Shown here: in pieces, positions 14,223 to 55,197 of the stretch
Layout: every line of letters begins with the position of its first letter
Position numbering within the stretch: the stretch's first letter is position 1
Assembly: GCA_964424265.1 (NCBI GenBank)
Contig: CAYRHX010000004.1
Span: forward strand, 4,081 to 68,080
DNA length: 64,000 bases
Direction: 5' to 3'
From: an uncultured Candidatus Saccharibacteria bacterium
GTDB lineage: Bacteria > Patescibacteriota > Minisyncoccia > Phycocordibacterales > UBA2100
Notes under the pieces: model-generated
Database searches by the model: none
Told to the model about the DNA's origin: nothing
What the model saw: the letters and a program-made list of their open reading frames with translations, nothing else
Translations under genes and position numbers: made by a program

Positions 14223-14316
14223 GCGCAGAAGTATGCACGTCCGGCACTCACTATGCAAATTTCTATTTCCTTGCGAATAACATCGACCGAGGCTACCATG
14301 CACGAAACACGACACC

Positions 14317-18886: not shown

Positions 18887-19294
18887 TTATTTTATAGGTA
18901 TTTCCCATTCAGATGGATCAGTCGGTCGTCTATGCTCATCGTCAGAGTTAAATTTTTGGTCTATGTAGAATAGTAAAATCGATGGCTCCAGCGATCGATA
19001 TCCGTGCCATATGCCAGGCTTGATGATGAGAGTCTTACGGCTCTGCTCACTCAACAATACACGCTCTTCTCGTCCGTTTTCTGAAACAAGGCGGAAAAGG
19101 ACGCTGCCTTTTGCTACGGTAAAATAATCAGTCTGCCGCGTATGCATATGCATGCCGGCAATAATGCCTGCCTGCATATATGAGAAGTTCATGTCTCCCG
19201 TGAGCCCTGGAACGATATCGTATAGTCCCCGACGCCTCTCGTCTTCATGGAAACGATGCGCATGAAATTCGGTCAACTTTTCTGAATCGGTCAT
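18887..19294 (-). CDS. RmlC-like cupin, probable NDP-4-keto-6-deoxyhexose 3,4-ketoisomerase (FdtA/WxcM-like)
   Basis: 135 aa. GMHMHTRQTDYFTVAKGSVLF His-x-His cupin motif and size typical of FdtA-type isomerases. Confidence 0.55.
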   Translation of the reverse strand: MTDSEKLTEFHAHRFHEDERRRGLYDIVPGLTGDMNFSYMQAGIIAGMHMHTRQTDYFTVAKGSVLFRLVSENGREERVLLSEQSRKTLIIKPGIWHGYRSLEPSILLFYIDQKFNSDDEHRRPTDPSEWEIPIK

Positions 19295-19301
19295 GGTATT
19301 T

Positions 19302-20189: not shown

Positions 20190-21195
20190 GAAAAATCTCC
20201 TTTGTCTTTATAACCTTCCACCAAGTTGGATTTTTAATATACCAATCCACAATCGCCGACAATGAGTCGTCCAAAGGATGCTGCGGTTTCCAATCGAGTT
20301 CCTTGGTCAACTTTGCCGAATGTGGCGCATAACGCATATCAGCGCCGGGCCTGTCGTCGACGTAGGAAATCATGTTCGTGTGATTCTTACCGAGAATACG
20401 AGCAACTATTTTGATAATTTCGATATTTTTCTTCTCAGTACCGGCAACATTGTAAATACTGCCCGGTCGCGCCTTATGCATGATAAGATCGACGGCCCTA
20501 CAAAAATCTTCTACATGAATCCATGTGCGCACATGCTCACCTGTGCCGTGCACGGGAACGGGCACCCCCTCTAAGAGATTTGTAATCGCGAGAGGAATAA
20601 GTTTTTCTGGATATTGATAGGGTCCGAAATTATTTGAACCGCGAACGATAATCGCAGGCACTGCATGACTTCGAATGTATGACTGCACTAGAAGATCCGC
20701 ACCTGCCTTGGAGGCCGCATATGGATTGGATGGCCGCATGGGAGACATTTCATCCGAGGAACCTTCGCGAATATCGCCGTAAATTTCGTCAGTCGAGATC
20801 TGAATAAATGTCTCAATGTGATGCCTGCGTACCAGATTCAACAAAACGTGCACTCCGGTGATGTTGCTGCGGACAAATTCGGCCGAATCAACAAGAGATC
20901 GGTCAACGTGGCTTTCTGCGGCAAAGTTGACAACAACATTTACACGCTCCTTCAGGAGAAGCGCATTGAGTTTCCCTGCATCACATATATCGCCATGTAC
21001 AAATACATACCTCCTTTCCTCAACTTTTTTTCCCGCTTCCAACTTCTCAATGTCTGAAAGATTGTCCGGATTCCCCGCATATGTCAAAAGATCGTAATTG
21101 ATAATCTTATAATCAGGGTAAAGTGTGTACATACGACGAATAAAATTCGATCCCATGAAGCCGGAGCCGCCCGTAACAAGAATCTTTTTACTCAT
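20149..21195 (-). CDS. rmlB: dTDP-glucose 4,6-dehydratase
   Basis: 348 aa. MSKKILVTGGSGFMGSNFIRRM...YAGNPDNL...NFAAESHVDRS. Confidence 0.9.
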   Translation of the reverse strand: MSKKILVTGGSGFMGSNFIRRMYTLYPDYKIINYDLLTYAGNPDNLSDIEKLEAGKKVEERRYVFVHGDICDAGKLNALLLKERVNVVVNFAAESHVDRSLVDSAEFVRSNITGVHVLLNLVRRHHIETFIQISTDEIYGDIREGSSDEMSPMRPSNPYAASKAGADLLVQSYIRSHAVPAIIVRGSNNFGPYQYPEKLIPLAITNLLEGVPVPVHGTGEHVRTWIHVEDFCRAVDLIMHKARPGSIYNVAGTEKKNIEIIKIVARILGKNHTNMISYVDDRPGADMRYAPHSAKLTKELDWKPQHPLDDSLSAIVDWYIKNPTWWKVIKTKEIFRDHYEKQRHGRYY

Positions 21196-22421
21196 ATAAT
21201 CTGCATGTCGCCGATGGGAATGATGAATTTACCACCCTTACTTCTATACTCCGCTTCTTTCTGCAAGATTTTATCCTTATAATTCCATGCAAGCATGAGG
21301 AAATAATCAGGGGGATCCTTGCGCGCCTCCCTCACGTCAACCACAGGAATATGCATGCCGGGACTGTACGAGCCAATCTTTGTGGGAAGTTCTTCGGTAA
21401 GGTAATCGAGTGTTCCGGTACCGATTTTGAAATAATTGAGCAAGGTATTCCCTTTGGCCGGCGCTCCATATCCCGCGATCCTCTTCCCTTGCGCTTTGAG
21501 TTCAGATAACAGTCTGAGTAGTTTTTCTTTCGACGCTGCAATACGTTCGGCAAGCCTTGTATATGCATCAATCGAATCCATGCCGAGCGATATCTCTTTT
21601 TTGACGAGATCTGCAACGGTCGGCATGACTTTGCGCGTTCCGGAGCGCGCAGCAAATACCCGAATTGACGTCCCTTGAGTTTCCTGAAGTTCTACATCAA
21701 AAATCTCTAGCCCGAATTGGCTGCACAGCCGCTGCAACGGTCGAATCGCAAGAAAACACACGTGCTCGTGATAGATGGTGTCAAACGCGAGATTCTCGAA
21801 CATATCTACCAAATACGGAGCCTCGAAAACAAATACTCCGTCCTCGGCAAGCAGCGCGGTAACACCTCGCATAAGATCATGTTTATCATCAATGTGCGCA
21901 ACTACATTATTGCCAATAATAACTTTTGCCTTCCCGTGACTCGCGAGTATCCTTCGAGCGCACTTTTCTCCAAAGAAGTCGACGATGGTCGGCACATGAC
22001 GATCTTCCGCCGCTTCTGCAATATTCCTCGCGGGATCGACACCTAGTATGCGGATTCCTTCAGGAAGGAATGCGGATAGAAGTAGTCCGTCATTGCTCCC
22101 AATTTCGACGACAAGATCCTCGTTCCGCTTCAATCGAAATCGTTTTGTCACATTCTTTGCATATTCGACAAAATGCTGCGGGGTCGGCATGTGCGATGTG
22201 AAGTATACATATTGAGAAAACAGCTCCTCTTTATCAACGACGTGACACAACTGGACGTGATTGCACTCATCACAAAAATACACCTGAAGCGGGTAGAAAG
22301 GTTCCTGAGCAACGGGAATGGCACTCACAAACGCGTTCGCAAGTGGCTGTTCCCCAAGATCAAGAAACTTGGTGAGATGCGATGACCCGCAGATACGACA
22401 TTCTTTCTTAAGAGTATACAT
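21192..22421 (-). CDS. NDP-hexose C-methyltransferase (TylCIII/NovU-like; Zn-ribbon + class I MTase + C-MeTrfase C-terminal domain)
   Basis: 409 aa. N-terminal CRICGS...CDECNHVQL. MTase core VVEIGSNDG. C-terminal ...GGKFIIPIGD. Confidence 0.75.
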   Translation of the reverse strand: MYTLKKECRICGSSHLTKFLDLGEQPLANAFVSAIPVAQEPFYPLQVYFCDECNHVQLCHVVDKEELFSQYVYFTSHMPTPQHFVEYAKNVTKRFRLKRNEDLVVEIGSNDGLLLSAFLPEGIRILGVDPARNIAEAAEDRHVPTIVDFFGEKCARRILASHGKAKVIIGNNVVAHIDDKHDLMRGVTALLAEDGVFVFEAPYLVDMFENLAFDTIYHEHVCFLAIRPLQRLCSQFGLEIFDVELQETQGTSIRVFAARSGTRKVMPTVADLVKKEISLGMDSIDAYTRLAERIAASKEKLLRLLSELKAQGKRIAGYGAPAKGNTLLNYFKIGTGTLDYLTEELPTKIGSYSPGMHIPVVDVREARKDPPDYFLMLAWNYKDKILQKEAEYRSKGGKFIIPIGDMQII

Positions 22422-22526: not shown

Positions 22527-23768
22527 TCATTTGGGTGGCATGATCACAAATACCGTATCATATATATCCTGGAGCGGTTTCTGATAGCGCACAATGTTCA
22601 CGACCTTACCATCCTTGTATTCGAGATACGTGGTCTTAAAAAGGCGTAATAACGGCTCCACAAAATGATTAAATACGAAGAGTCCAAGAGAGCCGCGGAA
22701 TTCGTTCTTAGGAAGCCCTCCCCCTTCATTTTCATAGGTGAAGTAATACCAGCGATTCTCTGTCATGAGAATGGAGCGAACGTCGTACCAGGAGAGGATG
22801 CAATTCTCCGCAAACTGCTCATGCGCAAAACTAATGAGTGTATCGCCGCGCTTAATGGGAAGACGCGAAAGAGAAAAGGCCGCGAGGAGCGCCTTCACAA
22901 TCCCTATCGGGCGCGCAGTTTGCCATACGAACGGGACAGTGATCATAGTATCAAAAACACTAAACAATGGATCATTTTTGACGAGATCCCAACGAGTGTG
23001 CTCGATCATGAGCAAGCCCGTTTTGAGATCGCGTGTTCGACGGAGGTTGGCGATAATGATGGCATCGCGCATTACATACGCTGGATCAGAAGCGATAAAC
23101 CAGAGTGTTTCCGGTTTCCCCACCGCCTCCATAATCTTCTCCATTGTTTTCGCTTCGTCTTCAATATACTTTCGACGTGAATCGGGAAGCGGAGCATCGA
23201 ACGAGCGGATAAAAAATGAATCCGGAAGACCCTTGAAATAGCTCCGATATCCTTCTATCGTCTCATCGGGAACAGATCCTTTCATAAGGTCGAGAAAGAT
23301 CGCTGCACGATACCCCATCGCATATGCGGAAGCTGCTGCCCAAGAACATGAGGCGAACACCCAGTCTATTTCTCCCTCACCGTGGAAGAGCAAGAAATCG
23401 GCGACGGTGCGCTTTCCCACTTCAAATCCAGAAAGGTTGAGTTTGGTGTATTCGTCGGTTTCATTCGGATGCTGCTGGTAAAGAAGACGGTGCGTGGGGA
23501 GATTTTCTTTAATATATGCGAGCATCGCATTAGTCTGCCTGATGAAAGACTCATGGTCCGAGCCAAGCGGCAGATTATAAAAATCTGTTCCAAAAAAGAC
23601 CGCGGTCTTGGCCCCCGGGTTATGTTTGAGCAAATATGGGAAAATGATCTTTTGTATACTTCCATGCTTCATCTGGAACAGCCTACCATAGCCGCGCCAT
23701 ACGTTAAAAATAGCGGGAATATAATCTCCGTGATAGATTATGCGAACCGGGAACATGAAAATGATCAA
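22527..23768 (-). CDS. Hypothetical protein, possible polysaccharide-modifying/glycosyltransferase-like
   Basis: 413-aa ORF, no confidently recognisable motifs. Longest ORF overlaps the divergent 23740 gene head-to-head by 29 nt, so the true start is likely internal (e.g. MKHGSIQ at about 23672). Confidence 0.4.
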   Translation of the reverse strand: MIIFMFPVRIIYHGDYIPAIFNVWRGYGRLFQMKHGSIQKIIFPYLLKHNPGAKTAVFFGTDFYNLPLGSDHESFIRQTNAMLAYIKENLPTHRLLYQQHPNETDEYTKLNLSGFEVGKRTVADFLLFHGEGEIDWVFASCSWAAASAYAMGYRAAIFLDLMKGSVPDETIEGYRSYFKGLPDSFFIRSFDAPLPDSRRKYIEDEAKTMEKIMEAVGKPETLWFIASDPAYVMRDAIIIANLRRTRDLKTGLLMIEHTRWDLVKNDPLFSVFDTMITVPFVWQTARPIGIVKALLAAFSLSRLPIKRGDTLISFAHEQFAENCILSWYDVRSILMTENRWYYFTYENEGGGLPKNEFRGSLGLFVFNHFVEPLLRLFKTTYLEYKDGKVVNIVRYQKPLQDIYDTVFVIMPPK

Positions 23769-24597
23769 GTTGTATCTCCGAAAGGTTGCTTACATGGTGC
23801 CAGGGGCTCAGGCACTCTGGATTAAACTAAACACCTGGCAAAAAAAGCATCCAGAATTTAGAGGGTGGGGCATGACCACCAATTCTTTTCCTCCTTGGTA
23901 TAAGGGCGGTGGTGATGATGTGTCGAAGGATTTTCTGAAGGCACACGAGGGCATCTTCGCCAACGTTTCAAAAGGACGATTTAAGCTCACTCAGTACGAG
24001 AACGTACAAGACAAGGCCGCCCGACTTCGTGAGTTGATGTGGCGGCACTACGTCGTTTTCTGGACCGTACAGTATGCCTCTTATGCGGCACGCGATAAAA
24101 CGATCAACCTCGTCGAATGCGGAGTGTGTGATGGATTAACGGTGTATTTCGCAATGAGCGCACTTCCGGAAGGAACGCAATTCAAGGCATATCTCTACGA
24201 CGCGTGGGAAAGAATGGAGGATGAAGACCTATTGGAGTCAGAAAAAAAACACGCTGGAGACTACGCCTACCTTGAGCTCGAAAATGCGAAGAGAAACCTC
24301 GTCGCGTTCGAACGAGAAACAGTCTTTATTAAGGGCTTCATTCCAGAGTCATTTAAAAACACCGAATCTCCAACAGAGGTGGTTTGGATGCACATCGATC
24401 TCAACGCATCTCTTCCCACTACGGCAGCCCTTCGACGATACTTCGACGCAATCCCACCTGGCGGCGTCATTCTCTTCGACGACTACGCATGGCGCGGATA
24501 CGAGGACACCAAAGTGGCCGTCGACAGGTTCTTCTCGGATAAAAAGGGTGTCCTTTTGCCGATGCCCACCGGCCAGGCGATCTTTTTCAAACATTAA
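23740..24597 (+). CDS. TylF/MycF-family sugar O-methyltransferase
   Basis: 285 aa. LVECGVCDGLTVYFAM and GGVILFDDYAW match the macrocin-O-methyltransferase family. Alternative starts at 23755/23761. Confidence 0.7.
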   Translation: MRTGNMKMIKLYLRKVAYMVPGAQALWIKLNTWQKKHPEFRGWGMTTNSFPPWYKGGGDDVSKDFLKAHEGIFANVSKGRFKLTQYENVQDKAARLRELMWRHYVVFWTVQYASYAARDKTINLVECGVCDGLTVYFAMSALPEGTQFKAYLYDAWERMEDEDLLESEKKHAGDYAYLELENAKRNLVAFERETVFIKGFIPESFKNTESPTEVVWMHIDLNASLPTTAALRRYFDAIPPGGVILFDDYAWRGYEDTKVAVDRFFSDKKGVLLPMPTGQAIFFKH

Positions 24598-24613: not shown

Positions 24614-26542
24614 TTATAGATTCGGATTGATTTTCTTCAAATTATACATTGCTTTCATAAAGCCCTCACCGCCAAATTTGTGACCCTGCCATATCTCCGG
24701 AACCATCCAGAGATCCGTCTTTGAGATCAAATCGAGTATTGGCTTCCACGGGACAGAACCGTCGCCGATCTGAAGTCCTTCTCCGTTAATGCGGGCAGCA
24801 TCCGATATATGCAAATATCTTGCGACTGGCAGTATCTTCTTCGCATAACTTAGAATGTCTTTCTCGTACTGATTGCAATACAAAGCGGCGTGAGACGTAT
24901 CAAACACGACACCGTAACCGTGTTCATTTGAAAACTGCGCAATCTCCTCCGCGTTCATAAAATTCGTGTGATACCACTGGCCCCCGAAGCACCAAGCGCA
25001 GCCGGGCATGTTTTCCACAAGCAGCTCGAAGCCGTCAGCGTCGAGTTTGTGGAGGGAATCTGCAAAATTCCGATTCAGTCGAGGTATATCATCCATTTTC
25101 GGCAATTGCATATTCATGCCGCCCGGATGGACGACAAACATTACTTTCTCATCCTTATTGACAAACAGTCTTTTTAGCGTGCGTGCGTACGCCAGCGCTT
25201 TATTGAAAAAGGCAATCGAGTGTTTCCGAAGGTCGTCGTCCAAGCTGGAGAGGTCGAGGAGCGTATCGCCATCATACTCTGGGCCGTGTACCGTCATCAT
25301 AAGAGGATATTTCTTGGTATATTTTCGAGCACTCGATACGTCCGAGCCGGTCAAGTGAATCTCGGCGAAATCCGAACCGCAGTGCATGAGCGTGTCAATA
25401 TCGCTCATGCGCGCAACAACTCCCCATGCATGACGTACGTCCACTGCACCGAAGAGGTCGCGAGGGCGCAGATTGATGTCCGATTCGAGAACGTAGTCGT
25501 CTTTTTTAATGCTTCTCGCCGTCAATTTTTTACCGATAAAAAGATCGAGCTTCATGGGGCTCGTACCCTTGCCAGGACTCTTGAGATTCAAATGCGCTTG
25601 CGTTAGTACGGTCCCTTTCTTCAGGTCCTTCGCGGCAACGATACTCTTCGCGAGAGTCTCACGATTGATGTACTCTCCGCGTGACGGTATACGCACACCG
25701 TCGCCCAAGGACGTTTCGACAACACGGATTTGCTTCACGAGCTCTGCGAATTCGGCGGGCTCAAGACTTGCCTTATGGTCGGGCCCGACCATCTCTCGAT
25801 CTAGCGTGATGTGGCGTTCAATCACGCATGCACCGAGCGCAACCGCAGCCGCTGAGACCGAGATCCCCGCCTCGTGTCCCGAATAGCCGACGAGACAGTG
25901 GAACCGCTTCTGAAGCGTATTTATAAACCTCAGATTTACGTCGTGAAATGGTGTCGGGTAGGTGCTGTTAGTGTGGAGCAGAACGTACTGGGCTTTAATC
26001 TTGTCGAGATACCCGAAGAGCTGTTCAACTTCAGACATAAATGACATGCCAGTTGATATGAGGATTGGCTTCTTGAGTTCCGCCACCGCACCGATGAGCG
26101 GTAGATTGAACATGTCGGCGGACGCAATTTTGTACGCGGGCAAATCAAGTGTATTAAGAAATGCGAGACTCTCCTCATCCCAAGCGGTACAGAGAAACTC
26201 TACCCCCATCGTGCGCGCATACTGGCACAGCGTACGCATCTCCGCTTCGCTCAGTTCACTCTTTTGGATGTGTCGCAAGCTATAGTGTGTGGCATTCTCT
26301 TCGGATGCAGAATTCTTCAGAGCCTTGGCCGCGTAGACGCTTTTTAAATCGCGCTTTTGAAACTTGACCGCATCGACGTGAGCCGCCACAGCATGATCAA
26401 TCAGCTTCTTTGCGAGTGTAACATCGCCCTGATGATTTAGGCCGATCTCAGCAATGATATACGTCGGATGACCATCGCCAATGCGCTTCTTCCCGATACG
26501 TATTTCAGTCATAGGCACTACCGTACCACAACACACGACCAC
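24614..26542 (-). CDS. Fusion: NeuB-family nonulosonic acid (sialic/legionaminic/pseudaminic acid) synthase + xylose-isomerase-like TIM-barrel domain
   Basis: 642 aa. N-terminal IGDGHPTYIIAEIGLNHQGDVTLAKKLIDHAVAAHVDAVKFQ with SAF domain (KDLKKGTVL). C-terminal about 300 aa sugar-phosphate isomerase/epimerase-like. Probable start MTEIRIG at about 26512. Confidence 0.75.
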   Translation of the reverse strand: MVVCCGTVVPMTEIRIGKKRIGDGHPTYIIAEIGLNHQGDVTLAKKLIDHAVAAHVDAVKFQKRDLKSVYAAKALKNSASEENATHYSLRHIQKSELSEAEMRTLCQYARTMGVEFLCTAWDEESLAFLNTLDLPAYKIASADMFNLPLIGAVAELKKPILISTGMSFMSEVEQLFGYLDKIKAQYVLLHTNSTYPTPFHDVNLRFINTLQKRFHCLVGYSGHEAGISVSAAAVALGACVIERHITLDREMVGPDHKASLEPAEFAELVKQIRVVETSLGDGVRIPSRGEYINRETLAKSIVAAKDLKKGTVLTQAHLNLKSPGKGTSPMKLDLFIGKKLTARSIKKDDYVLESDINLRPRDLFGAVDVRHAWGVVARMSDIDTLMHCGSDFAEIHLTGSDVSSARKYTKKYPLMMTVHGPEYDGDTLLDLSSLDDDLRKHSIAFFNKALAYARTLKRLFVNKDEKVMFVVHPGGMNMQLPKMDDIPRLNRNFADSLHKLDADGFELLVENMPGCAWCFGGQWYHTNFMNAEEIAQFSNEHGYGVVFDTSHAALYCNQYEKDILSYAKKILPVARYLHISDAARINGEGLQIGDGSVPWKPILDLISKTDLWMVPEIWQGHKFGGEGFMKAMYNLKKINPNL

Positions 26543-26578
26543 ACATCAACGCAGACCCGCAGACCCGTGGACTTTTAT

Positions 26579-27265
26579 TTACCACGCAGTCCAACCACCA
26601 TCGACGTACACCTCAGTACCCGTGACATAGCTAGACTTCTCGCTGAGGAGAAATTCGAAAGCGGAAACCGTCTCGTCGATATGCATCATTCGCTTCATCG
26701 GGGTATGAGAGCTGTATTTCTCGACAAAAACCGGGTCTTGCGCGGGATCGGCGACACCCCCAAAAACTACCGTGTTGACCCGAATATCTGGCGCATAGTA
26801 GGCGGCTAGATACTTGGACAGTATGATCACACTCGCCTTGGAAAGCGAGTACCCGACATGCTTCACAAAATCTGTGTAGATCGCATGCTTCGGAGATACA
26901 ACACCGTACAGCGAGCTCACGTTCACTATAGTCCCCTTCGAATTATTTCGAATGAATTCTCTGCATACACTAAATGCACTCACGACATTCACTTCCAAGT
27001 ACTCGCGAATTTCTGAAAGTGGAGTATCGATGGGTTCGATCTTTACCGAACCTTTCGTTGGCACGGGATTGTATGCGTGACACACGATCAGACCGTACAA
27101 ATCTTGATTTTCACTGAACCACTTCTTCACAAACTCCTCATTTGAGAGCTCGTGCCCCAGTACACGATCTAGCTTAAGAACCTCGTACTCGTTTTCGAAG
27201 TGACGAACAAGTTTTGAACCGATAAGACCTTCACTCCCCGTGATGACGAGTTTCTTTCTTTTCAT
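26579..27265 (-). CDS. Short-chain dehydrogenase/reductase (SDR) family oxidoreductase
   Basis: 228 aa. LVITGSEGLIGSKL Rossmann motif and YSLSK catalytic motif. Confidence 0.75.
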   Translation of the reverse strand: MKRKKLVITGSEGLIGSKLVRHFENEYEVLKLDRVLGHELSNEEFVKKWFSENQDLYGLIVCHAYNPVPTKGSVKIEPIDTPLSEIREYLEVNVVSAFSVCREFIRNNSKGTIVNVSSLYGVVSPKHAIYTDFVKHVGYSLSKASVIILSKYLAAYYAPDIRVNTVVFGGVADPAQDPVFVEKYSSHTPMKRMMHIDETVSAFEFLLSEKSSYVTGTEVYVDGGWTAW

Positions 27266-28536
27266 GCGGCAGATTGCGCGTCGAAAAAGGCAATCGTCTT
27301 CTTGAGCGCATTCATCTGAAGATTCATGTCCTTCTCGATACCCTGATTCGTGGTGAATTGCATGATGCGCGGTTGCAGTTTCTCAGCCTGCGGACAATGT
27401 ACTCCTTTCAGATATCCCTTATGATACTTCGCCTGCCCGGGAAGATCAGGAAAGAATCTCCCCTTCTCGTGGATGAGTCGCATGATAGGTTCGTTATAGA
27501 CGAGGGCCCACGCAGAGTAAATGCCGTCGCCGCCAAACTCCATAAATTTACGCCGGAAGTCGTACCAGCTCACTCCGCGCTTCTCTTCTCCCTCGTAGCG
27601 AACGGCAAATGTATAGTACGAATTCACGTATCCCTTGGGAGTTTTCTGGGGTAATACCCAATCGCACCCTTTAAGGGCTGCAAAATATTTAGCCGCGATC
27701 TGCTGGCGTTTCTTCACCAGAAAGTTTATACGCTCGACCTGTGCGAGCCCGATTGCCGCAGCCACTTCAGGTAAGCGGTAATTGTATCCAAACGTGTCGT
27801 GACGCAGGTACATCGGATCCTGAAAAGTATCTTTATTTTTCCGTACCTGGCCTGAAAGCGCCTTGATATTCTTGAAGCCCATCCCCCCAAACTTTCGCAT
27901 TCTCTCTGCGAGCAATTCGCTGTCCGTTATGAGGATACCGCCATCGCCTGTCGAGATGTGCTTTGAATTCTCTGTGCTAAAACTACCCACATCGCCGACG
28001 GTACCTCCAATCCGGCCCTGATCATCGGTCCCTAGATAACACTGCGCGCAGTCCTCAACAACAAAGAGTTTGTGCTTCTTGGAAATCCGCATGATGCTCT
28101 TCATGTCACACACTTGTCCGTAGAGATGCACCGGCATTATGGCCTTGGTGCGCTTCGTGATCTTACGTTCAATATCCTTTGGATCGATCAGGAAAGTGTC
28201 AGGATCCACATCAGCAAATACGGGACGCGCACCCGCCATAATCACGGCGTAGCCGCACATGACCACCGTGAGCGCAGGCACAATCACTTCGTCCCCCGGC
28301 CCCACGCCAAAAGCCATGAGGGCCTGATGAAGCGTTGAAGTACCAGAGTTTGAAGTTACAGCATATTGCATGCCAAGACGCTCTGAAAAGGCCCGCTCAT
28401 AGCGTTGATTCATGTTACCCGAGGTAGAGCTGCCAAAACCCGAATTGAGAACCTCTCGGACGTACTTCACCTCGTTGCCCACAAAGCGCCAGCTATTACT
28501 CGTCTTTCTAATCTTTTCACCAACAGGTTTTTTCAT
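27262..28536 (-). CDS. DegT/DnrJ/EryC1/StrS-family PLP-dependent sugar aminotransferase
   Basis: 424 aa. AVTSNSGTSTLHQALMAFGVGPGDEVIVPALT...FSTENSKHISTGDGGIL. Confidence 0.8.
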   Translation of the reverse strand: MKKPVGEKIRKTSNSWRFVGNEVKYVREVLNSGFGSSTSGNMNQRYERAFSERLGMQYAVTSNSGTSTLHQALMAFGVGPGDEVIVPALTVVMCGYAVIMAGARPVFADVDPDTFLIDPKDIERKITKRTKAIMPVHLYGQVCDMKSIMRISKKHKLFVVEDCAQCYLGTDDQGRIGGTVGDVGSFSTENSKHISTGDGGILITDSELLAERMRKFGGMGFKNIKALSGQVRKNKDTFQDPMYLRHDTFGYNYRLPEVAAAIGLAQVERINFLVKKRQQIAAKYFAALKGCDWVLPQKTPKGYVNSYYTFAVRYEGEEKRGVSWYDFRRKFMEFGGDGIYSAWALVYNEPIMRLIHEKGRFFPDLPGQAKYHKGYLKGVHCPQAEKLQPRIMQFTTNQGIEKDMNLQMNALKKTIAFFDAQSAA

Positions 28537-28539
28537 AGT

Positions 28540-29349
28540 TTATATTTTGAGCTTGAGGGACGTTTTCTTCTTTTGGTTTTCGAGAAATTCCTGCTGTCGA
28601 AAGAAGTTCATCGCTGCAATTTCGGGTTTCCCGCCCAACATCTGCAAGATATCACGGAGAGGCACCGTGTTGCTAGCCATGTCCATTTCCTCAAAAACTC
28701 GCTTAAAAAACTCGTAATCCTCCGGATAGTCAAGCGTCAATCGGATTTTTTCATTCCAATAGATGGGGTCGGCAACTTTAAAATCTGAAACGTTAAAAAG
28801 TCCCGTATCAGTGAAATACACCCACATCATCTCGGTCTCCTTTGTATCTTTAATCTCGCACACTTTCTCGAGAGCCGTTGTCTTGATCCCGAACTCAGGT
28901 CCGCCGCAGACAAGTCCCTTTGGGATATTGAGAAAATCCGGCCGCTCTGTTTTTATCTGCTGTATCTCCATCTCGATAAGCTCCGAACCAAAGAACGGAT
29001 CGTCGCCGTCAAGTGTAATAATGTAATCTGCTTCAAATCTTCTGGCAGCACCAAGCCATCGATCGAGCTTATCCTCGAGACTGCCGCGGAAACACAAAAT
29101 TCCTTCTTTCGACGCGATTTCCTCTAGAACATCGTCCTGCTCCCTATCTGAGGTACAGAGCACAATGCCATCGAGTCCTCGTACCGACTTCGCGCGGTCA
29201 ATCACATGCTCAACCACCCTTCTTCCCCGAATTGGCAAAAGCGCCTTCTGCGGAAGACGCGACGAATCGGATCGCACAGTGATTAGTCCAAGAATCTTCA
29301 TATACCCTGTAGTATCCCACTGGCGCGGTGCCCGGTCTAGCGGTAGCAT
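28540..29349 (-). CDS. Acylneuraminate cytidylyltransferase-like CMP-nonulosonic acid synthetase (CTP_transf_3)
   Basis: MKILGLITVRSDSSRLPQKALLPIRGRRVVEHVIDRA. Probable start at about 29301. Confidence 0.75.
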   Translation of the reverse strand: MLPLDRAPRQWDTTGYMKILGLITVRSDSSRLPQKALLPIRGRRVVEHVIDRAKSVRGLDGIVLCTSDREQDDVLEEIASKEGILCFRGSLEDKLDRWLGAARRFEADYIITLDGDDPFFGSELIEMEIQQIKTERPDFLNIPKGLVCGGPEFGIKTTALEKVCEIKDTKETEMMWVYFTDTGLFNVSDFKVADPIYWNEKIRLTLDYPEDYEFFKRVFEEMDMASNTVPLRDILQMLGGKPEIAAMNFFRQQEFLENQKKKTSLKLKI

Positions 29350-29357
29350 GACCTCAC

Positions 29358-30614
29358 ATGCTTCAGTCTCTTAAAAACCGCACACTCGCCCTTCTGCGGT
29401 GGAGCGAGACCTACACCAAGACCGATATGTTGTATGCAGTACACGGAGGATTCTGGCTTGTCGTTGCCAAAATGGTCGCACTCGGATCATCGCTGCTCCT
29501 TGCTGTCGCGATGGCAAATTTTATTTTGCCGCAGACGTTCGGGGTCTATAAATTCGTGTTGTCAGCAACGGGTATACTCGGCGCCATTACTCTAACGGGC
29601 GCGGGGGCTGCAATCGTGCAGTCGGTTGCACGCGGATACGAAGGCGCATTTCGCTCTGGAACAATCGAGTACATCAAGTGGAGTTTGGGTTCTGTCGCAC
29701 TCGCAATCTCGATGGCCATCTACTATTTAGTCAACGAGAACTACACTCTTGCGGCATCTTTTTTTATCGTCGCGATCTGTAACCCGATACTCGTGAGCTC
29801 CTCCTTCTTCACACAATTCATCTCTGCAAAGAAGGATTTCCGAACTGGATCAATATTTGATAGCATTGCAGACATCGTTCCCGTATCTATTTTGATCGCC
29901 GCAACGCTCCTCACTCAAAATCCCGTATTCCTTATTGCGACCTACTTCTTATCGGGGACAGGCATCAATCTCGTGTTGCGACACGCCACAATCAGAAAAT
30001 ATCGTCCCAATGATCGAGTCGATCCCGAGACCATTCCATATGCCCGACACTTAAGCCTCATAGGTATGATCGGAAAGATCGCTGAAAACGTCGATAAAAT
30101 ACTTGTCTTTCATTATCTCGGGGCGGCGCAATTGGCGATTTACGCATTCGCTCAAACGCCGATTGCTCAATTGAAGCTCTTCAACGACATCCCAGCGAGA
30201 CTCGCCCTCCCGAAGTTGAGTGCAAGAAATCTCTCCGAACTAAAAGATTCACTCCCTAGAAAGATTCTCTTGCTGGTCGGAGTTATGACAGTCGTCGTGA
30301 TTATATATATTGCTCTTGCTCCGTTTCTTTTTAGACTCCTGTTTCCTCAGTATCTAGAATCTATCGTCCTTACGCAAGTACTTGCACTTTCTCTCATCTT
30401 TGCCCCAGGTTCAATGTTTGGAGAAGCTTTGACTGCGCACATGCGAAAGAAAGAACTATACATCTCACAAACGATTCTTCCAATTGCGAAAATTGGTCTT
30501 TTTATGTTGCTATTGCCAGCATGGGGAATCTGGGGCGCTGTATGCACAACGATCGTCTCACAATGTCTCATGTTTATAATCTATTCCTACCTCTTTTTGC
30601 GGACACAGCGTTAA
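29358..30614 (+). CDS. Wzx-type oligosaccharide flippase (MOP superfamily polysaccharide biosynthesis protein)
   Basis: 418 aa, about 12-14 TM helices with the Wzx arrangement. Confidence 0.75.
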   Translation: MLQSLKNRTLALLRWSETYTKTDMLYAVHGGFWLVVAKMVALGSSLLLAVAMANFILPQTFGVYKFVLSATGILGAITLTGAGAAIVQSVARGYEGAFRSGTIEYIKWSLGSVALAISMAIYYLVNENYTLAASFFIVAICNPILVSSSFFTQFISAKKDFRTGSIFDSIADIVPVSILIAATLLTQNPVFLIATYFLSGTGINLVLRHATIRKYRPNDRVDPETIPYARHLSLIGMIGKIAENVDKILVFHYLGAAQLAIYAFAQTPIAQLKLFNDIPARLALPKLSARNLSELKDSLPRKILLLVGVMTVVVIIYIALAPFLFRLLFPQYLESIVLTQVLALSLIFAPGSMFGEALTAHMRKKELYISQTILPIAKIGLFMLLLPAWGIWGAVCTTIVSQCLMFIIYSYLFLRTQR

Positions 30615-30645: not shown

Positions 30646-32529
30646 ATGAGAAACCTTCGAGATATCTATCTAGCGCTTTGCGCATCGTATGCAACACAGA
30701 TGCGTATCGCCAGGTTCATTATTTCCGGTGGCACTGCAACAGCTGTCAATCTTGGAGCACTATTCATACTCACACACTTATTCCACATCTGGTATCTCTT
30801 TTCTTCAGTACTTGCATTTGGCGCGTCATTCCTCGTCAGCTTCACATTGCACAAATTCTGGACATTCGGTGACACCTCTCAGGATCGCATACACGTCCAA
30901 GCATCTCTATTCTTCCTCGTCATCGTTACGGCGCTCGGAATCAACACTGGTCTGCTCTATACGTTTGTCGAGTACGCACATCTGCACTACCTCGTCGCAC
31001 AATTTATAAGCGGTATTTTCATCGCATTCATCAACTACTTCAGCTACAAGCACCTTGTGTTTCGTGTGGAAGATCCATCAACTGCGCCGACAGAAAACTC
31101 CAGACCTGTGCTTACACGCCTCTTTTTCCTTGCATGTGCCACGGTGACATTTCTCATTCTCGCGCTCTACCGCCTGCCAGAAAATCCACCGACATGGTTG
31201 GATGAAGGGGCCATAACGCAGGTGTCTATCAATCTCGCACACAGCGGAACCTATGGTCTTCAGACAGCGCCTGGACATTTCGTCTCGACCGATTTTCTCA
31301 CCACGAGCCTCCCGGTCATCTATCCTGTCGCTCTCTCGTTTTTCCTTTTTGGCACATCGATTTTGGATGCGCGGATGGTCATGGTTATTTTCATGGGACT
31401 CCTGTGCGTCTTTTCGTATTTTCTGATCCGGATGCTCGCCACCGAAAGGAAACGCGAGTTACCCATCCTCTCTCTGTACTTACTAGTCACATTTGCGCCG
31501 CTCTACGGACACGGAAAAAATGTGCTCGGCGAAGTACCCGGACTCATGTTCTTCGTCGCCTCTCTTGTCGCCTTTCATTTCGCGGAAAGACGTTCGGGTC
31601 TGTGGCTTTGGATACTTTCAGGTGCGTTTTTGGGTCTCTCGGCGACCACCAAACCAATCTACCTGTTTATTATTGCGCCATCCGCACTATTGACACTCCT
31701 GATATATCGCAAACGATTCTCTCTCAAAAACATCGGCGTCTACGCCGTGAGCGCTTCGAGCATTCTCATGTTGTGGTTTTTCGTACACGTCACGAATGTC
31801 GTCGCCCTTAAAGAGATTCTTCTTTCAGCCAACACGAACAACGTCGCGCTCTCCACTCGTCTTTTTGAAAATGGCATTCGATTCGTTTCCGAACCTCAAC
31901 CACTTTACTTCCTCGCTCTCCTTGCTCTTTGGTGGATCGCCTTGGTATACCGCAGATGGAAGAGGATTGAGATCTCAAGCGTTGAGCTCTTTGCTGGTAT
32001 TTTTGCTGTGACAAATCTCATTCTGTATCTTGCAAGTCGAGGTTTTTATCGTTACTTTTTCCCCGCGGAGATACTCGCGCTGATTTTCTTACCACTCGCT
32101 CTATACACCATGCCGCTCAAAGAACAGTACCGAGCCATATTCCTTAAAGCCTGTACCGCGTTCATCGTATTTCTTGTCCTCCTCCAAGGCTATCAAACAT
32201 TTTTCCGTTCATGGATATCTGAATACAGATCGAGTGCTCGCTCTGCCCTTCTTTCTGAACACCTGCGCGGTATCCCCGGTGAAAGAAGCGTCTTTTTCTA
32301 CAATGTTCCCGAAGCCGTCATATTTTTGCCATCTCAAAACTACTACCAGTACTTGTGGTTCGGCGACAACACCATCCGAGGAGAAGAAAATCTGCCGATA
32401 CTCTTTCGAGGTGAGCCCGATTTCGTCTTAGTAGATGGAAAATTCCCTGATACTGACAAAATATCGCCTCTATATATTGAGATTTCGCGATTCGACAAAT
32501 ATGTTCTCTACGAAAAAAAGCGCAAGTAA
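30646..32529 (+). CDS. GtrA-like domain fused to GT-C (GT39/GT83, ArnT/PMT-like) membrane glycosyltransferase
   Basis: 627 aa. N-terminal 4-TM GtrA (FIISGGTATAVNLGALFILTHL...LHKFWTF) then about 11 TM helices typical of polyprenyl-phosphate-sugar-dependent GT-C enzymes. Confidence 0.75.
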   Translation: MRNLRDIYLALCASYATQMRIARFIISGGTATAVNLGALFILTHLFHIWYLFSSVLAFGASFLVSFTLHKFWTFGDTSQDRIHVQASLFFLVIVTALGINTGLLYTFVEYAHLHYLVAQFISGIFIAFINYFSYKHLVFRVEDPSTAPTENSRPVLTRLFFLACATVTFLILALYRLPENPPTWLDEGAITQVSINLAHSGTYGLQTAPGHFVSTDFLTTSLPVIYPVALSFFLFGTSILDARMVMVIFMGLLCVFSYFLIRMLATERKRELPILSLYLLVTFAPLYGHGKNVLGEVPGLMFFVASLVAFHFAERRSGLWLWILSGAFLGLSATTKPIYLFIIAPSALLTLLIYRKRFSLKNIGVYAVSASSILMLWFFVHVTNVVALKEILLSANTNNVALSTRLFENGIRFVSEPQPLYFLALLALWWIALVYRRWKRIEISSVELFAGIFAVTNLILYLASRGFYRYFFPAEILALIFLPLALYTMPLKEQYRAIFLKACTAFIVFLVLLQGYQTFFRSWISEYRSSARSALLSEHLRGIPGERSVFFYNVPEAVIFLPSQNYYQYLWFGDNTIRGEENLPILFRGEPDFVLVDGKFPDTDKISPLYIEISRFDKYVLYEKKRK

Positions 32530-33018: not shown

Positions 33019-34293
33019 TCACCGCCCGATGATCCGCACATCTGGCAAAGGAACGATGAATTTCGTCCCCTCCGCCATAAGATCCGATTCTCTTTTTATA
33101 AAACCTCCTATAAAACTGTACGGTAGGGCAAGCAAATAATCTGGCTTCGCGGCGCGCATTTCAACCTCATCTTTAATGAGTATATCTGAACCGATGATAA
33201 ATTTGCCGTGTTTGAAGGGATTTGAATCAGCCGCAGCCGCGATTGTCTCACGCCCGATTCCACAATATTGGAGAATGGTGTTCCCCTTGGTAGAAGCTCC
33301 ATACACCCAAATAGTTTTTCCCTCCGCACTTATCTTTGCACATAAATCTTGGAGGTCTGTGCGCGTCTTTTCGATCCTCCGCATAAATTTCTGGTACGTT
33401 TCCAGCTCAAACACCCCATCATCGAGCTCGTTCTGGAGAAGCCCACGCAAGCGCTCCGTCAGAGGAAATCTTTTACACCCCTTCTTCTTTACAAACACCC
33501 GGAAGCTCCCCCCGTACACATCATTCTCCGTCACGTCGAACACCTCGAGACCCACCTGCTCCATGAGCCATTTCATATGGACAGTCGCGTAATATCCAGC
33601 GTGTTCATGGACGATGTTGTCATACATATTCGTCCGGATCATTGCGGGAAGGTAGGCCATTTGGATCACCCATACCCCCTCATCGTCGAGGCATGTCGCG
33701 GCATCCCGCGCGAGCTTGAGAGGATCGTCGAGATGATAGAACATCGCGATGCTAAAGATGAGTTTCGCTTTCTTCTTCGAGTTCTTTCGAAACGCTGCCG
33801 CATTAAAAAAATCATGCACTGCCGTATAATTCGGAGAATCGAGAAGCGACCTTACATTCTTCGCCGGATCAATATTGATGAGCTCGAAAGGATCGTCGCG
33901 AAAAAAGGAGAGGAGTGTGCCATCGTTACCTCCGATGTCGAGAATGACATCACCCGACTCGAGATTCTTGAGCGCACGCCTGCTCTGTGCCACATCCTCG
34001 AGAATACGCGCCATGGATGAGTTTGTGCTGCTCGTATATGGATACGCATCATACATGGCCGAAAGATCGAGCCTGTGGCCAAGCTGGACGAGGCCGCACG
34101 TTTTGTCCGTTTTACGGCACATCACGAGATCGAGTGGATATTTAATAGCATCTTTCCGATATTCGAGATTCTCGGGAAATACCGACGAAAGATATTGCTC
34201 GCCAATATCAATGCAAGGCACGAGGTCGGAGTTTCCGCATACTCGGCATCGCTCAATCCTCGGGACCACCTGTGCGATTGATCTTTTTTGCAT
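33019..34293 (-). CDS. NDP-hexose C-methyltransferase paralog (TylCIII-like)
   Basis: 424 aa. CRVCGNS...C Zn-ribbon, VILDIGGNDGTL MTase core, C-terminal KFIVPLPD. Same architecture as the 21192-22421 gene. Confidence 0.75.
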   Translation of the reverse strand: MQKRSIAQVVPRIERCRVCGNSDLVPCIDIGEQYLSSVFPENLEYRKDAIKYPLDLVMCRKTDKTCGLVQLGHRLDLSAMYDAYPYTSSTNSSMARILEDVAQSRRALKNLESGDVILDIGGNDGTLLSFFRDDPFELINIDPAKNVRSLLDSPNYTAVHDFFNAAAFRKNSKKKAKLIFSIAMFYHLDDPLKLARDAATCLDDEGVWVIQMAYLPAMIRTNMYDNIVHEHAGYYATVHMKWLMEQVGLEVFDVTENDVYGGSFRVFVKKKGCKRFPLTERLRGLLQNELDDGVFELETYQKFMRRIEKTRTDLQDLCAKISAEGKTIWVYGASTKGNTILQYCGIGRETIAAAADSNPFKHGKFIIGSDILIKDEVEMRAAKPDYLLALPYSFIGGFIKRESDLMAEGTKFIVPLPDVRIIGR

Positions 34294-53595: not shown

Positions 53596-53630
53596 GCTTG
53601 CAGTATATCGTATTTTGCTTAGCCGCAGAG

Positions 53631-55193: not shown

Positions 55194-55197
55194 AGCT

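What the first reader, a model, noticed from the sequence alone, without database searches (positions are those of the whole stretch)
24614..29349. Nonulosonic-acid biosynthesis cassette containing a NeuB-synthase/TIM-barrel isomerase fusion
Four co-directional genes encode a NeuB-family synthase, an SDR, a DegT-family aminotransferase and a CMP-sugar synthetase. This is the core of a sialic/legionaminic/pseudaminic-type pathway. The synthase is unusual. It is a 642-aa protein in which the NeuB+SAF module is fused to a about 300-aa xylose-isomerase-like (sugar phosphate isomerase/epimerase) TIM barrel. This suggests a coupled epimerisation/isomerisation-condensation step. No separate UDP-GlcNAc 2-epimerase or hydrolysing epimerase (NeuC/LegG/PseG) gene is present in the cassette. 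The fused barrel might substitute for it.
Basis: partly seen in the sequence, partly recalled or inferred. Interest (0 to 1): 0.55.

Follow-up and report, generated by a model that had tools for sequence, protein, structure and literature searches.

The report
Sialic-acid-type synthase fused to TIM barrel
The window really does encode a sialic-acid-type sugar synthase fused to a metal-binding TIM barrel; this uncharacterised fusion is widespread in uncultured bacteria and some archaea, and the barrel more likely removes a phosphate from the new sugar acid than isomerises the starting sugar.

Summary
Observation confirmed. On the minus strand, 24614-29349 holds four co-directional genes: CTP_transf_3, DegT aminotransferase, a short SDR, and a 632-aa NeuB+SAF+xylose-isomerase-like TIM barrel. 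There is no frameshift; over 100 homologues share the length and architecture.

The fusion is a large, unstudied family (199 clusters at E<1e-30). It occurs mostly in Patescibacteria, also in Methanoregula and in Gram-negative capsule loci. Split (NeuB-SAF then TIM), CBS-extended and cytidylyltransferase-fused forms exist.

The cytidylyltransferase is the most frequent partner (31 of 50 well-flanked loci). SDR and aminotransferase are accessory. The cassette is therefore a CMP-ulosonic-acid module, not a canonical Neu5Ac/Leg/Pse pathway.

Residues around the NeuB active site resemble synthases that use phosphorylated sugars (vertebrate NANS, Kdn-9-P synthases), and Arg314 is lost. Related barrel-less synthases have an adjacent or fused HAD phosphatase in 7 of 7 loci, against 4 of 50 fusion loci. 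Two syntenic operon pairs differ only by HAD versus SAF+TIM. The barrel keeps endonuclease-IV-like ligands for two metals.

Best hypothesis (about 0.45): a bifunctional ulosonate-9-phosphate synthase/phosphatase. This is untested. A neighbouring unannotated gene is a sialyltransferase-like glycosyltransferase.

The parts
24614..26512 (-). 632-aa NeuB-SAF-TIM barrel fusion protein (the ORF extends to a GTG at 26542; the ATG at 26512 is the likely start)
   Evidence: Pfam NeuB E 2e-82, SAF E 5e-9, AP_endonuc_2 E 5e-23. The same 632-aa product is called on 6 contigs. 114 full-length homologues.
25694..26404 (-). NeuB catalytic (PEP-aldose condensing) domain
   Evidence: Aligns over its whole length to N. 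meningitidis NeuB (E 1e-48). Catalytic and metal residues E22, K50, Q52, K128, S131, S153, H213, E232, H234, D245 are invariant in 114 homologues. The motifs KFQKR, GYSGHE and E-R-H match synthases that use phosphorylated sugars.
25475..25648 (-). SAF (antifreeze-like) domain. The position of NeuB Arg314 is Ser312.
   Evidence: Pfam SAF. Ser in 105 of 114 and Gly in 7 of 114 family members where N. meningitidis NeuB has Arg314.
24617..25468 (-). Xylose-isomerase-like TIM barrel domain with a predicted two-metal site
26579..27265 (-). Short (228 aa) SDR oxidoreductase; accessory partner
   Evidence: Pfam adh_short_C2. TGSEGLIG and YSLSK motifs are present. Weakly PtmA/PRK09186-like, below cut-offs. 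An SDR lies within 4 genes of the fusion in 27 of 77 loci.
27262..28536 (-). DegT-family PLP aminotransferase; accessory, specific to the Patescibacteria subgroup
   Evidence: Pfam DegT E 1e-85. LegC/PseC-like but below cut-offs. Replaced by a class-III aminotransferase at the same operon position in L016 and L037.
28540..29349 (-). CTP_transf_3 cytidylyltransferase (CMP-ulosonate synthetase); the most frequent partner of the fusion
   Evidence: Pfam CTP_transf_3 E 6e-22. A homologue is adjacent to the fusion in Methanoregula, Patescibacteria and Gram-negative loci, is fused to it in P0053, and lies within 6 kb in 31 of 50 well-flanked loci.
22527..23768 (-). Unannotated protein of about 380-410 aa; candidate CMP-ulosonate-dependent (sialyltransferase-like) glycosyltransferase. 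Start codon uncertain.
23740..24597 (+). TylF/Methyltransf_24-like methyltransferase between the fusion and the candidate transferase
   Evidence: Pfam. A homologue of the candidate transferase is fused to a Methyltransf_24 domain (P0406).
29358..30614 (+). Polysacc_synt (MOP/Wzx-type) flippase, divergent from the cassette
   Evidence: Pfam Polysacc_synt E 4e-14. Flippases also flank the fusion in L015, L016, L020.

Best explanation
The cassette is a CMP-ulosonic-acid (sialic-acid-like sugar) pathway built around a bifunctional enzyme. Proposed steps follow; all chemistry is inferred, none has been assayed. (1) The NeuB domain condenses PEP with a phosphorylated aldose, most simply mannose-6-P or ManNAc-6-P, to give an ulosonate 9-phosphate, as vertebrate NANS and Kdn-9-P synthases do. 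(2) The fused TIM barrel uses an endonuclease-IV-like two-metal centre to hydrolyse that phosphate. It thereby takes the place of the HAD phosphatase found in related pathways. (3) In this Patescibacteria subgroup, the SDR oxidises a hydroxyl of the free acid and the aminotransferase converts the carbonyl to an amine. (4) The CTP_transf_3 enzyme makes the CMP-sugar. (5) The neighbouring sialyltransferase-like protein transfers the sugar to a surface glycan, which the adjacent methyltransferase may methylate and the Wzx-type flippase exports.
For: Shown: the fusion is real and conserved. A split form exists in which a NeuB-SAF gene overlaps the start of a TIM gene. The cytidylyltransferase is the most frequent partner and is sometimes fused. 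All NeuB catalytic residues are invariant. Every strand end of the barrel carries invariant His/Asp/Glu residues. For a phosphorylated substrate: of 10 alignment columns that separate phospho-sugar synthases from free-sugar NeuBs, the fusions match the phospho class in 6 and the free-sugar class in 1. The phospho class comprised vertebrate NANS, the assayed P. parvum Kdn-9-P synthetase (PMC6200933) and HAD-linked bacterial synthases. The six matching columns flank catalytic residues (53, 54, 109, 212, 214, 233). Arg314, conserved in bacterial SAF-containing NeuBs and replaced by Val in eukaryotic NANS (PMC8208679), is Ser here. For the phosphatase role: a KdsC-like HAD is fused to the cytidylyltransferase or directly adjacent in 7 of 7 barrel-less class-A synthase loci. 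It lies within 6 kb in only 4 of 50 fusion loci (Fisher p 1e-6). Two syntenic operon pairs differ only by HAD versus SAF+TIM: SDR-CTP3.HAD-NeuB-Caps543 (L008/L011) versus SDR-CTP3-fusion-Caps543 (L091 and others), and Aminotran_3-SDR-HAD-NeuB (L010) versus Aminotran_3-SDR-fusion (L037/L016). The barrel keeps the residues aligned to the His, His, Glu, Asp/His and His metal ligands shared by MJ1311 and endonuclease IV, and lacks the Asp-x-His pair (invariant G-E-G instead). With a phosphatase, the two-gene minimum (L004, L018, L020) is a complete route from central metabolites. The downstream transferase is supported.
Against: No enzyme with this fold is known to me as a sugar-phosphate phosphatase; characterised PF01261 members are mostly isomerases, epimerases and dehydratases. 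The closest structure (MJ1311) has no known function. In a neighbour-joining tree the fusion's NeuB domain forms its own clade outside the phospho-sugar clade, which has bootstrap 83. Overall identities to both classes are similar, 41-48%. Lys53 is not conserved across the wider fusion family; only Arg54 is. Asp at the E134 position also occurs in some classical NeuBs. Four or five fusion loci do carry a HAD nearby (L030, L038, L053, L086, and a different HAD type in L016). The complementarity could partly reflect lineage. The identity of the aldose and the position that is aminated are unknown.
Confidence: 0.45

Rival explanations
1. The barrel is an isomerase or epimerase that makes the aldose (or aldose phosphate) consumed by the NeuB domain. 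Examples would be ketose to aldose, or a C2 epimerisation of a GlcNAc-type sugar to a ManNAc-type sugar. It would replace NeuC/NanE-type enzymes and channel the product into the synthase.
For: The Pfam family and most characterised structural neighbours are sugar isomerases or epimerases. The canonical Glu-Asp-His-Glu ligands used by ketose 3-epimerases are present. Epimerase_2 (NeuC/LegG) directly follows classical NeuB genes in L006, L007 and L009 but occurs in only 2 of 84 fusion loci, so the barrel could equally stand in for that step. CBS domains fused to the protein or to the lone barrel recall the CBS pair of arabinose-5-P isomerase KdsD, the first enzyme of the Kdo pathway (own knowledge).
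Against: It does not explain why the HAD phosphatase disappears exactly where the barrel appears in otherwise syntenic operons. It does not explain why the residues around the synthase active site look like the phospho-sugar class; if the substrate is phosphorylated, a phosphatase is then missing. The two extra invariant His residues (H409, H462) occupy positions that in ketose 3-epimerases are small hydrophobic residues (own knowledge). This suggests a two-metal site unlike those enzymes.
Confidence: 0.25
2. The barrel tailors the product after condensation. It would epimerise or dehydrate an ulosonate, or a keto-ulosonate made by the SDR or a Gfo/Idh/MocA oxidoreductase. This would resemble the 3-keto-sugar epimerases, lyases and hydratases of the same fold.
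Against: The barrel is always present, whereas oxidoreductases are absent from many loci (L004, L018, L020). This reading also leaves the HAD complementarity unexplained.
Confidence: 0.15
3. The barrel is a phosphodiesterase that releases a free aldose from a nucleotide sugar such as GDP-mannose or UDP-HexNAc. It would thus supply the hydrolysing half of a NeuC-like step.
For: Endonuclease-IV-like metal ligands. No NeuC in the loci. It would also make the two-gene module self-sufficient.
Against: The synthase active-site residues resemble the phospho-sugar class rather than the free-sugar class. The third metal site, which in endonuclease IV stabilises the leaving group, is lost (role of the site from own knowledge). 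There is no precedent.
Confidence: 0.07

Closest known systems
Phospho-sugar sialic acid/Kdn pathway: NANS or Kdn-9-P synthase, then a HAD phosphatase (NANP; B. thetaiotaomicron Kdn-9-P phosphatase), then CMP-Kdn/Neu5Ac synthetase (vertebrates, Bacteroides, Prymnesium; PMC6200933)
   Same: Same order of reactions as proposed here. Shared residues next to the catalytic residues (KFQK[RS], G[YF]SGH[EH], E-R-H; no Arg314). The same cytidylyltransferase family is adjacent.
   Different: The phosphatase would be a xylose-isomerase-like TIM barrel fused to the synthase, not a HAD enzyme. The synthase domain forms its own clade. An extra SDR and aminotransferase are present. Substrate and product have not been determined.
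Bacterial NeuB/LegI/PseI synthases using free sugars (N. meningitidis NeuB, PDB 1XUZ)
   Same: Same NeuB+SAF two-domain layout. All PEP-, metal- and catalysis-related residues are conserved. 33-38% identity.
   Different: Arg314 is replaced by Ser. KxQT[HF] and SDHT are replaced by KFQKR and SGHE. No NeuC/LegG/PseG next door. Scores fall below the NCBIfam equivalog cut-offs.
MJ1311 of Methanocaldococcus jannaschii (PDB 3WQO, 'D-tagatose 3-epimerase-like protein', function unknown) and endonuclease IV
   Different: MJ1311 is described as keeping all nine endonuclease IV zinc ligands (own recollection of the 3WQO paper). The fusion family has an invariant Gly-Glu-Gly where the Asp-x-His of the third site would be. 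Only 19-22% identity.
Kdo8N pathway of Shewanella (KdnB oxidoreductase plus KdnA aminotransferase acting on Kdo before CMP activation; own knowledge, not retrievable here)
   Same: Logic of oxidising a hydroxyl of a finished ulosonic acid and transaminating it. This would explain the SDR plus aminotransferase pair and why two unrelated aminotransferase families occupy the same operon slot.
   Different: Different enzyme families (SDR rather than Fe-ADH), nine-carbon-type synthase, no experimental link.

Membership tests
NeuB family (PF03102) PEP-aldose condensing synthases | Significant match to the family profile over the whole catalytic domain | tested here: met
   PF03102 E 2e-82, profile positions 1-240 of 241. 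Full-length alignment to PDB NeuB, E 1e-48.
NeuB family (PF03102) PEP-aldose condensing synthases | Catalytic Glu residues, metal-binding His pair and PEP-binding Lys/Ser residues (N. meningitidis E25, K53, Q55, K129, S132, S154, S213, H215, E234, H236, D247) | tested here: met
   The equivalents E22, K50, Q52, K128, S131, S153, S211, H213, E232, H234, D245 are invariant or nearly so in 114 homologues.
N-acetylneuraminate synthase NeuB/NnaB equivalog (TIGR03569) and pseudaminic acid synthase PseI (TIGR03586) | Score above the curated equivalog cut-off | tested here: not met
   351 bits against a cut-off of 400 for NeuB_NnaB; 229 against 340 for PseI.
Bacterial free-ManNAc NeuB | Arg314 of the SAF domain contacting the substrate (essential in N. 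meningitidis; conserved in bacterial SAF-containing NeuBs, PMC8208679) | tested here: not met
   Ser312 in the window. Ser in 105 and Gly in 7 of 114 homologues. [KR]-S-PG in most of 76 wider representatives.
Phospho-sugar synthases (NANS / Kdn-9-P synthase class) | Residues that separate assayed or HAD-linked phospho-sugar synthases from free-sugar NeuBs | tested here: inconclusive
   6 of 10 discriminating columns match the phospho class and 1 the free-sugar class. However, the domain lies outside the phospho-sugar clade in an NJ tree, and Lys53 is variable in the wider family.
Phospho-sugar synthases (NANS / Kdn-9-P synthase class) | Use of Man-6-P or ManNAc-6-P as substrate | not testable with these tools
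   Needs an enzyme assay.
Canonical Neu5Ac / legionaminic / pseudaminic acid gene cluster | Presence of a hydrolysing 2-epimerase (NeuC/LegG) or PseG and, for Leg/Pse, a 4,6-dehydratase plus N-acetyltransferase with the synthase | tested here: not met
   None in the cassette or in the window ORFs scanned. Epimerase_2 in 2 of 84 related fusion loci, versus directly after classical NeuB in L006, L007, L009.
Xylose isomerase-like TIM barrel (PF01261, AP_endonuc_2) | Profile match and (beta/alpha)8 fold of this superfamily | tested here: met
Xylose isomerase-like TIM barrel (PF01261, AP_endonuc_2) | Glu-Asp-His-Glu metal ligands at the ends of strands | tested here: met
   E500, D538, H568, E606 are invariant or at least 85% conserved and lie at the strand C-termini of the model.
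Endonuclease IV | Nine ligands of a trinuclear zinc centre | tested here: not met
   The Asp-x-His pair of the third site is absent. It appears as an insertion in endonuclease IV relative to the family profile, and aligns to an invariant Gly-Glu-Gly against MJ1311. The other positions are conserved.
Ketose 3-epimerase (D-tagatose / D-psicose 3-epimerase) | Close sequence relationship and a mononuclear Mn site with a hydrophobic sugar pocket | tested here: inconclusive
HAD-type ulosonate-phosphate phosphatase (KdsC / Kdn-9-P phosphatase) | HAD-fold protein encoded with the synthase | tested here: not met
   No HAD in the cassette. HAD within 6 kb in 4 of 50 fusion loci, against 7 of 7 barrel-less class-A synthase loci.
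Bacterial sialyltransferase / Kdo-transferase-like GT-B enzymes (for the 22527-23768 neighbour) | GT-B Rossmann domain similar to CMP-sugar transferases, and the His-Pro motif | tested here: met

The most novel reading that the evidence does not exclude
The xylose-isomerase-like barrel is a new kind of sugar-acid phosphate phosphatase: an endonuclease-IV-derived two-metal site recruited to small-molecule chemistry. Fused to a NANS-like synthase, it forms a self-contained synthase/phosphatase. In Patescibacteria its product would be further oxidised and transaminated to a previously undescribed amino-ulosonic acid displayed on the cell surface.
Probability: 0.35. Interest if true: 0.72.

Novelty: new variant of a known kind. 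Interest (0 to 1): 0.58.

Why it matters
Sialic-acid-like sugars shape how microbes are seen by hosts, phages and partner cells. Their pathways are normally predicted from a fixed gene set: NeuB/C/A, Leg or Pse genes. This fusion family is large (199 clusters at 50% identity with E<1e-30, and 549 confirmed stretches in one metagenome scan). Databases label it only as 'N-acetylneuraminate synthase family protein', so current rules would mis-call its product as Neu5Ac or legionaminic acid.

If the barrel is the phosphatase, three things follow. The animal-type phosphorylated route would be widespread in uncultured bacteria and archaea. The xylose-isomerase-like fold would gain a new reaction type. 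And a two-gene, three-activity module would be available for making CMP-activated ulosonic acids.

For the episymbiotic Patescibacteria, it points to a dedicated, modified acidic sugar on the cell surface, with a candidate transferase next door.

Tried and rejected
**Literature.** Searches for the fusion found nothing. The terms were NeuB with xylose isomerase or TIM barrel, nonulosonic with xylose isomerase, and Patescibacteria with nonulosonic. The MJ1311 search gave one irrelevant paper. The Kdo8N/KdnA search was swamped by kDNA papers. The Cotton et al. 2014 paper on phosphate-binding determinants of human NANS is not held.

**Searches that reached little.**
- The single-sequence PDB search with the barrel gave only an insignificant MbnB hit (E 0.55). 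I considered and rejected an MbnB-like iron oxidase role: the match is insignificant and the family occurs in the methanogen Methanoregula, a strict anaerobe (own knowledge).
- The genome-contig scan with a single protein reached only 11 loci, one of them a full-length fusion.
- afdb50 was unavailable.

**Attempts that failed or were uninformative.**
I redid it with database homologues.
- Script one search was a faulty script with no result.
- Contexts of the lone barrels P0125 and P0160 were too short or cut off.
- Organism names for the exact proteins are not on record.

**Evidence weighed and downgraded.**
- Overall identity and the NJ tree of the NeuB domain do not place the fusion inside either functional class, so I did not use them as support.
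- The E134-to-Asp change highlighted in PMC8208679 is not a clean discriminator in my set.
- A frameshift or two-gene artefact is rejected.


Full report
**1. The observation**

ORF listing shows four co-directional minus-strand genes at 28540-29349, 27262-28536, 26579-27265 and 24614-26542.

Pfam assigns them as follows:
- CTP_transf_3 (E 6e-22);
- DegT_DnrJ_EryC1 (E 1e-85);
- adh_short_C2/adh_short (E 2e-26);
- for the last gene, NeuB (E 2e-82), SAF (E 5e-9) and AP_endonuc_2, the xylose-isomerase-like TIM barrel (E 5e-23).

The product called on six independent contigs, and the alignment with homologues, start at the ATG at 26512, giving 632 aa.

The fusion is not a frameshift artefact:
- 114 database homologues of 600-660 aa align along the whole length.
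- The C-terminal 284 residues fold with pLDDT 95.4 into an eight-stranded barrel.

**2. How widespread the fusion is, and its forms**

The best 120 homologues nearly all have the same three Pfam domains and about 632 aa. Where a source names them, they come from Patescibacteria/CPR metagenome-assembled genomes (Paceibacterota, Yanofsky-, Roizman-, Kaiser- and Spechtbacteria). They are labelled only 'N-acetylneuraminate synthase family protein' or 'sialic acid synthase SpsE/sugar phosphate isomerase/epimerase'.

A profile of the barrel alone, searched against 1.84 billion representatives, finds 199 clusters at E<1e-30. One metagenome scan confirmed 549 stretches.

Architectures seen:
- NeuB-SAF-TIM, about 630 aa;
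- CBS-NeuB-SAF-TIM, about 750 aa;
- TIM alone, about 275 aa;
- TIM-CBS;
- CTP_transf_3-NeuB-SAF-TIM, 902 aa (P0053).

In L019 a separate NeuB-SAF gene overlaps the start of a separate TIM gene, and it carries the same motifs as the fusion. This is a classic split/fused pair and argues for a functional link.

The fusion also occurs in the archaeon Methanoregula sp. UBA154 (44% identity). It also occurs in a Gram-negative-type capsule locus with Wza, Wzi, Wzz and Wzy.

Four literature searches for the fusion found nothing. A large phylogenetic study of nonulosonic acid synthases contained none of the terms 'xylose', 'AP_endonuc' or 'fused' (PMC8208679).

**3. Conserved gene context**

I called and clustered ORFs in 101 loci and annotated the recurrent clusters.

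- The cytidylyltransferase is the most frequent partner. It lies within 6 kb in 31 of 50 loci with adequate flanks, and is often the -1 gene.
- An SDR lies within four genes in 27 of 77 loci.
- DegT occurs essentially only in the Patescibacteria subgroup closest to the window. There the order CTP3-DegT-SDR-fusion recurs (L024, L027, L030).
- In L016 and L037 a class-III aminotransferase sits in the DegT slot.
- Minimal loci have just the cytidylyltransferase plus the fusion (L004, L018, L020).
- A second operon type reads PAPS synthase, SDR, CTP3, fusion, a 543-aa weakly Capsule_synth-like protein, methyltransferase, sulfotransferase.

No NeuC-type Epimerase_2 gene is present in the window ORFs I scanned.

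The cassette is therefore a CMP-ulosonic-acid module with optional tailoring. It is not a canonical Neu5Ac, legionaminic or pseudaminic pathway. Consistent with this, the synthase scores below the NCBIfam cut-offs for NeuB and PseI.

**4. The synthase domain**

All catalytic, metal-binding and PEP-binding residues of N. meningitidis NeuB are conserved. Arg314 of the SAF domain is Ser in 105 of 114 homologues.

PMC8208679 reports that Arg314 is the conserved catalytic residue of bacterial SAF-containing NeuBs and is replaced by Val in eukaryotic enzymes. It also reports that the E134 position, near where a ManNAc-6-P phosphate would lie, is Asp in archaea and eukaryotes. The fusion has Asp133, although in my set this position is not a clean discriminator.

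I obtained three kinds of verified comparators:
- vertebrate N-acetylneuraminate-9-phosphate synthases;
- the assayed Prymnesium parvum Kdn-9-P synthetase, from the supplement of PMC6200933;
- classical and SAF-less bacterial synthases from the fetched loci.

| Group | Motif after catalytic Lys/Gln | Motif at metal His | Arg314 |
|---|---|---|---|
| Fusions | KFQKR | GYSGHE | absent |
| NANS | KFQKS | GYSGHE | absent |
| Kdn-9-P synthetase | KFQKR | GFSGHH | absent |
| HAD-linked bacterial synthases | KFQKR | G[YF]SGH[EH] | absent |
| N. meningitidis NeuB and NeuC-linked NeuBs | KxQ[TAN]x | SDHT | present (K-R-PG) |

An unbiased count found 10 columns that separate the two classes. The fusions match the phospho-sugar class in 6 (positions 53, 54, 109, 212, 214, 233, all next to catalytic residues). 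They match the free-sugar class in 1 and neither in 3.

Caveats:
- In a neighbour-joining tree the fusions form their own clade, outside the phospho-sugar clade.
- Overall identities to both classes are similar.
- In the wider family only Arg54 is invariant, not Lys53.

**5. The barrel**

By sequence the only solved relative is MJ1311 (E 5e-14). By structure the best matches are:
- xylose isomerases.

The domain is thus roughly equidistant from all of these and represents a separate subfamily. NCBIfam has no model for it.

Invariant His/Asp/Glu/Arg residues sit at the C-terminal end of every strand. The residues aligned to metal ligands shared by MJ1311 and endonuclease IV are kept: His409, His462, Glu500, Asp538/His541 and His568. 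Glu606 lies at the end of strand 8. The Asp-x-His pair of the third zinc site is replaced by an invariant Gly-Glu-Gly.

This predicts a two-metal centre. Ketose 3-epimerases use a single metal and have small residues at the two extra His positions (own knowledge). In endonuclease IV the corresponding metals hydrolyse phosphoesters, including 3'-phosphates (own knowledge).

**6. What the barrel replaces**

Three patterns emerge.
- Classical Arg314-type NeuB genes are followed directly by Epimerase_2 (L006, L007, L009).
- Barrel-less, SAF-less class-A synthases have a KdsC-like HAD phosphatase fused to the cytidylyltransferase (406-417 aa) or as the adjacent gene. This holds in 7 of 7 loci: L008, L010, L011, L012, L014, L067, L081.
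- Fusion loci have a HAD within 6 kb in 4 of 50 cases, and Epimerase_2 in 2 of 84. For HAD, Fisher p is 1.2e-6.

Most telling are two syntenic operon pairs that differ only in this respect:
- SDR, CTP3-HAD, NeuB, Caps543 (L008/L011) versus SDR, CTP3, NeuB-SAF-TIM, Caps543 (L091, L080, L101 and others);
- Aminotran_3, SDR, HAD, NeuB (L010) versus Aminotran_3, SDR, NeuB-SAF-TIM (L037, L016).

With the phospho-sugar-like residues around the active site, the most economical reading has four steps. The synthase makes an ulosonate 9-phosphate. The barrel removes the phosphate. The free acid is, in this subgroup, oxidised by the SDR and transaminated. The cytidylyltransferase then activates it.

That makes the two-gene minimal module a complete route from an aldose 6-phosphate, PEP and CTP.

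I put this at about 0.45. There is no precedent for such a phosphatase in this fold, a few loci have both HAD and barrel, and the tree does not support the substrate class.

**7. The surroundings**

The unannotated gene at 22527-23768 is the +1/+2 neighbour of the fusion in 12 related loci. It has no Pfam or NCBIfam match and only 'hypothetical' homologues. It carries an invariant Y-x-P-H-P-x-E motif.

Its model (pLDDT 87) matches these structures best:
- KpsC and KrKA Kdo transferases.

All of these use CMP-activated ulosonic acids. It is a good candidate for the transferase that consumes the cassette's product.

One homologue is fused to a Methyltransf_24 domain (P0406), the family of the gene that lies between it and the fusion in the window. 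The whole region from about 11 to 51 kb is a glycan island.

**8. Verdict**

The fusion family is present in databases but functionally unstudied as far as I could find. I classify it as a new variant of a known kind of pathway, with a specific and testable mechanistic hypothesis.

Noticed in passing
window 22527-23768 (-): Unannotated conserved protein with an invariant His-Pro motif whose model resembles polysialyltransferase, GT80 sialyltransferases and KpsC Kdo transferases. It looks like a new sialyltransferase-like family specific to these Patescibacteria loci. One homologue (P0406, 654 aa) is fused to a Methyltransf_24 domain.
   Followed up: yes
L049, L052, L075, L077, L078, L080, L091, L094, L101 (around the fusion at about 10 kb in each): A second conserved operon type around the fusion: bifunctional ATP-sulfurylase/APS kinase, SDR, cytidylyltransferase, fusion, a 543-aa weakly Capsule_synth-like protein, methyltransferase, sulfotransferase. 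This suggests methylated and sulfated ulosonic-acid glycans.
   Followed up: partly
P0155, P0162, P0192, P0258; L020/L021 8001-10256: About 750-aa variants with an N-terminal CBS domain in front of NeuB-SAF-TIM, in a Gram-negative-type capsule locus (Wza, Wzi, Wzz, Wzy). There is also a lone TIM-CBS protein (P0160) followed by GFO_IDH_MocA and SDR genes.
   Followed up: partly
L067 8009-10825, L072 984-3844, L074: A SAF-less class-A NeuB gene sits in tandem directly upstream of the fusion. That makes two synthases in a row, possibly sharing the one barrel.
   Followed up: no
window 21192-22421 (-) and 33019-34293 (-), with 18887-21195 (-): Two TylC3-like sugar C-methyltransferases (Methyltransf_13/14) sit next to dTDP-glucose 4,6-dehydratase, RmlD-like and RmlC/FdtA-like genes. 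This looks like a branched-chain (C-methyl) deoxysugar pathway in the same island.
   Followed up: no
window 13410-14345 (-): A 311-aa protein combining a cytidylyltransferase-like domain (PF01467) with the C-terminal cupin of type-II mannose-6-phosphate isomerase. This is an unusual pairing and could be relevant to mannose-phosphate supply.
   Followed up: no
window 40349-42292 (-): A 647-aa ORF joining a GT4 glycosyltransferase to partial UDP-glucose/GDP-mannose dehydrogenase domains. L016 shows fragmented UDPG_MGDP_dh genes next to its fusion. This could be a real fusion or decay.
   Followed up: no
window 30646-32529 (+), 37600-39306 (-), 11023-13410 (-): A GtrA-PMT_2 fusion (627 aa), a second PMT_2-like protein and a Wzy_C/O-antigen-ligase-TPR protein (795 aa). 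Together they suggest lipid-linked glycan transfer to surface proteins or polymers.
   Followed up: no
window 51772-55454 (-): Two adjacent 607-aa ORFs. The one that was scanned (51772-53595) matches type IV secretion coupling-protein domains (TrwB_AAD_bind). A lamin-tail-domain protein lies next to it (50964-51944).
   Followed up: no
L038 15498-19940: A separate sub-operon of HAD phosphatase, SDR, transketolase-like TPP enzyme (638 aa) and cytidylyltransferase in the same locus as a fusion. This is possibly a further, different activated-sugar pathway.
   Followed up: no
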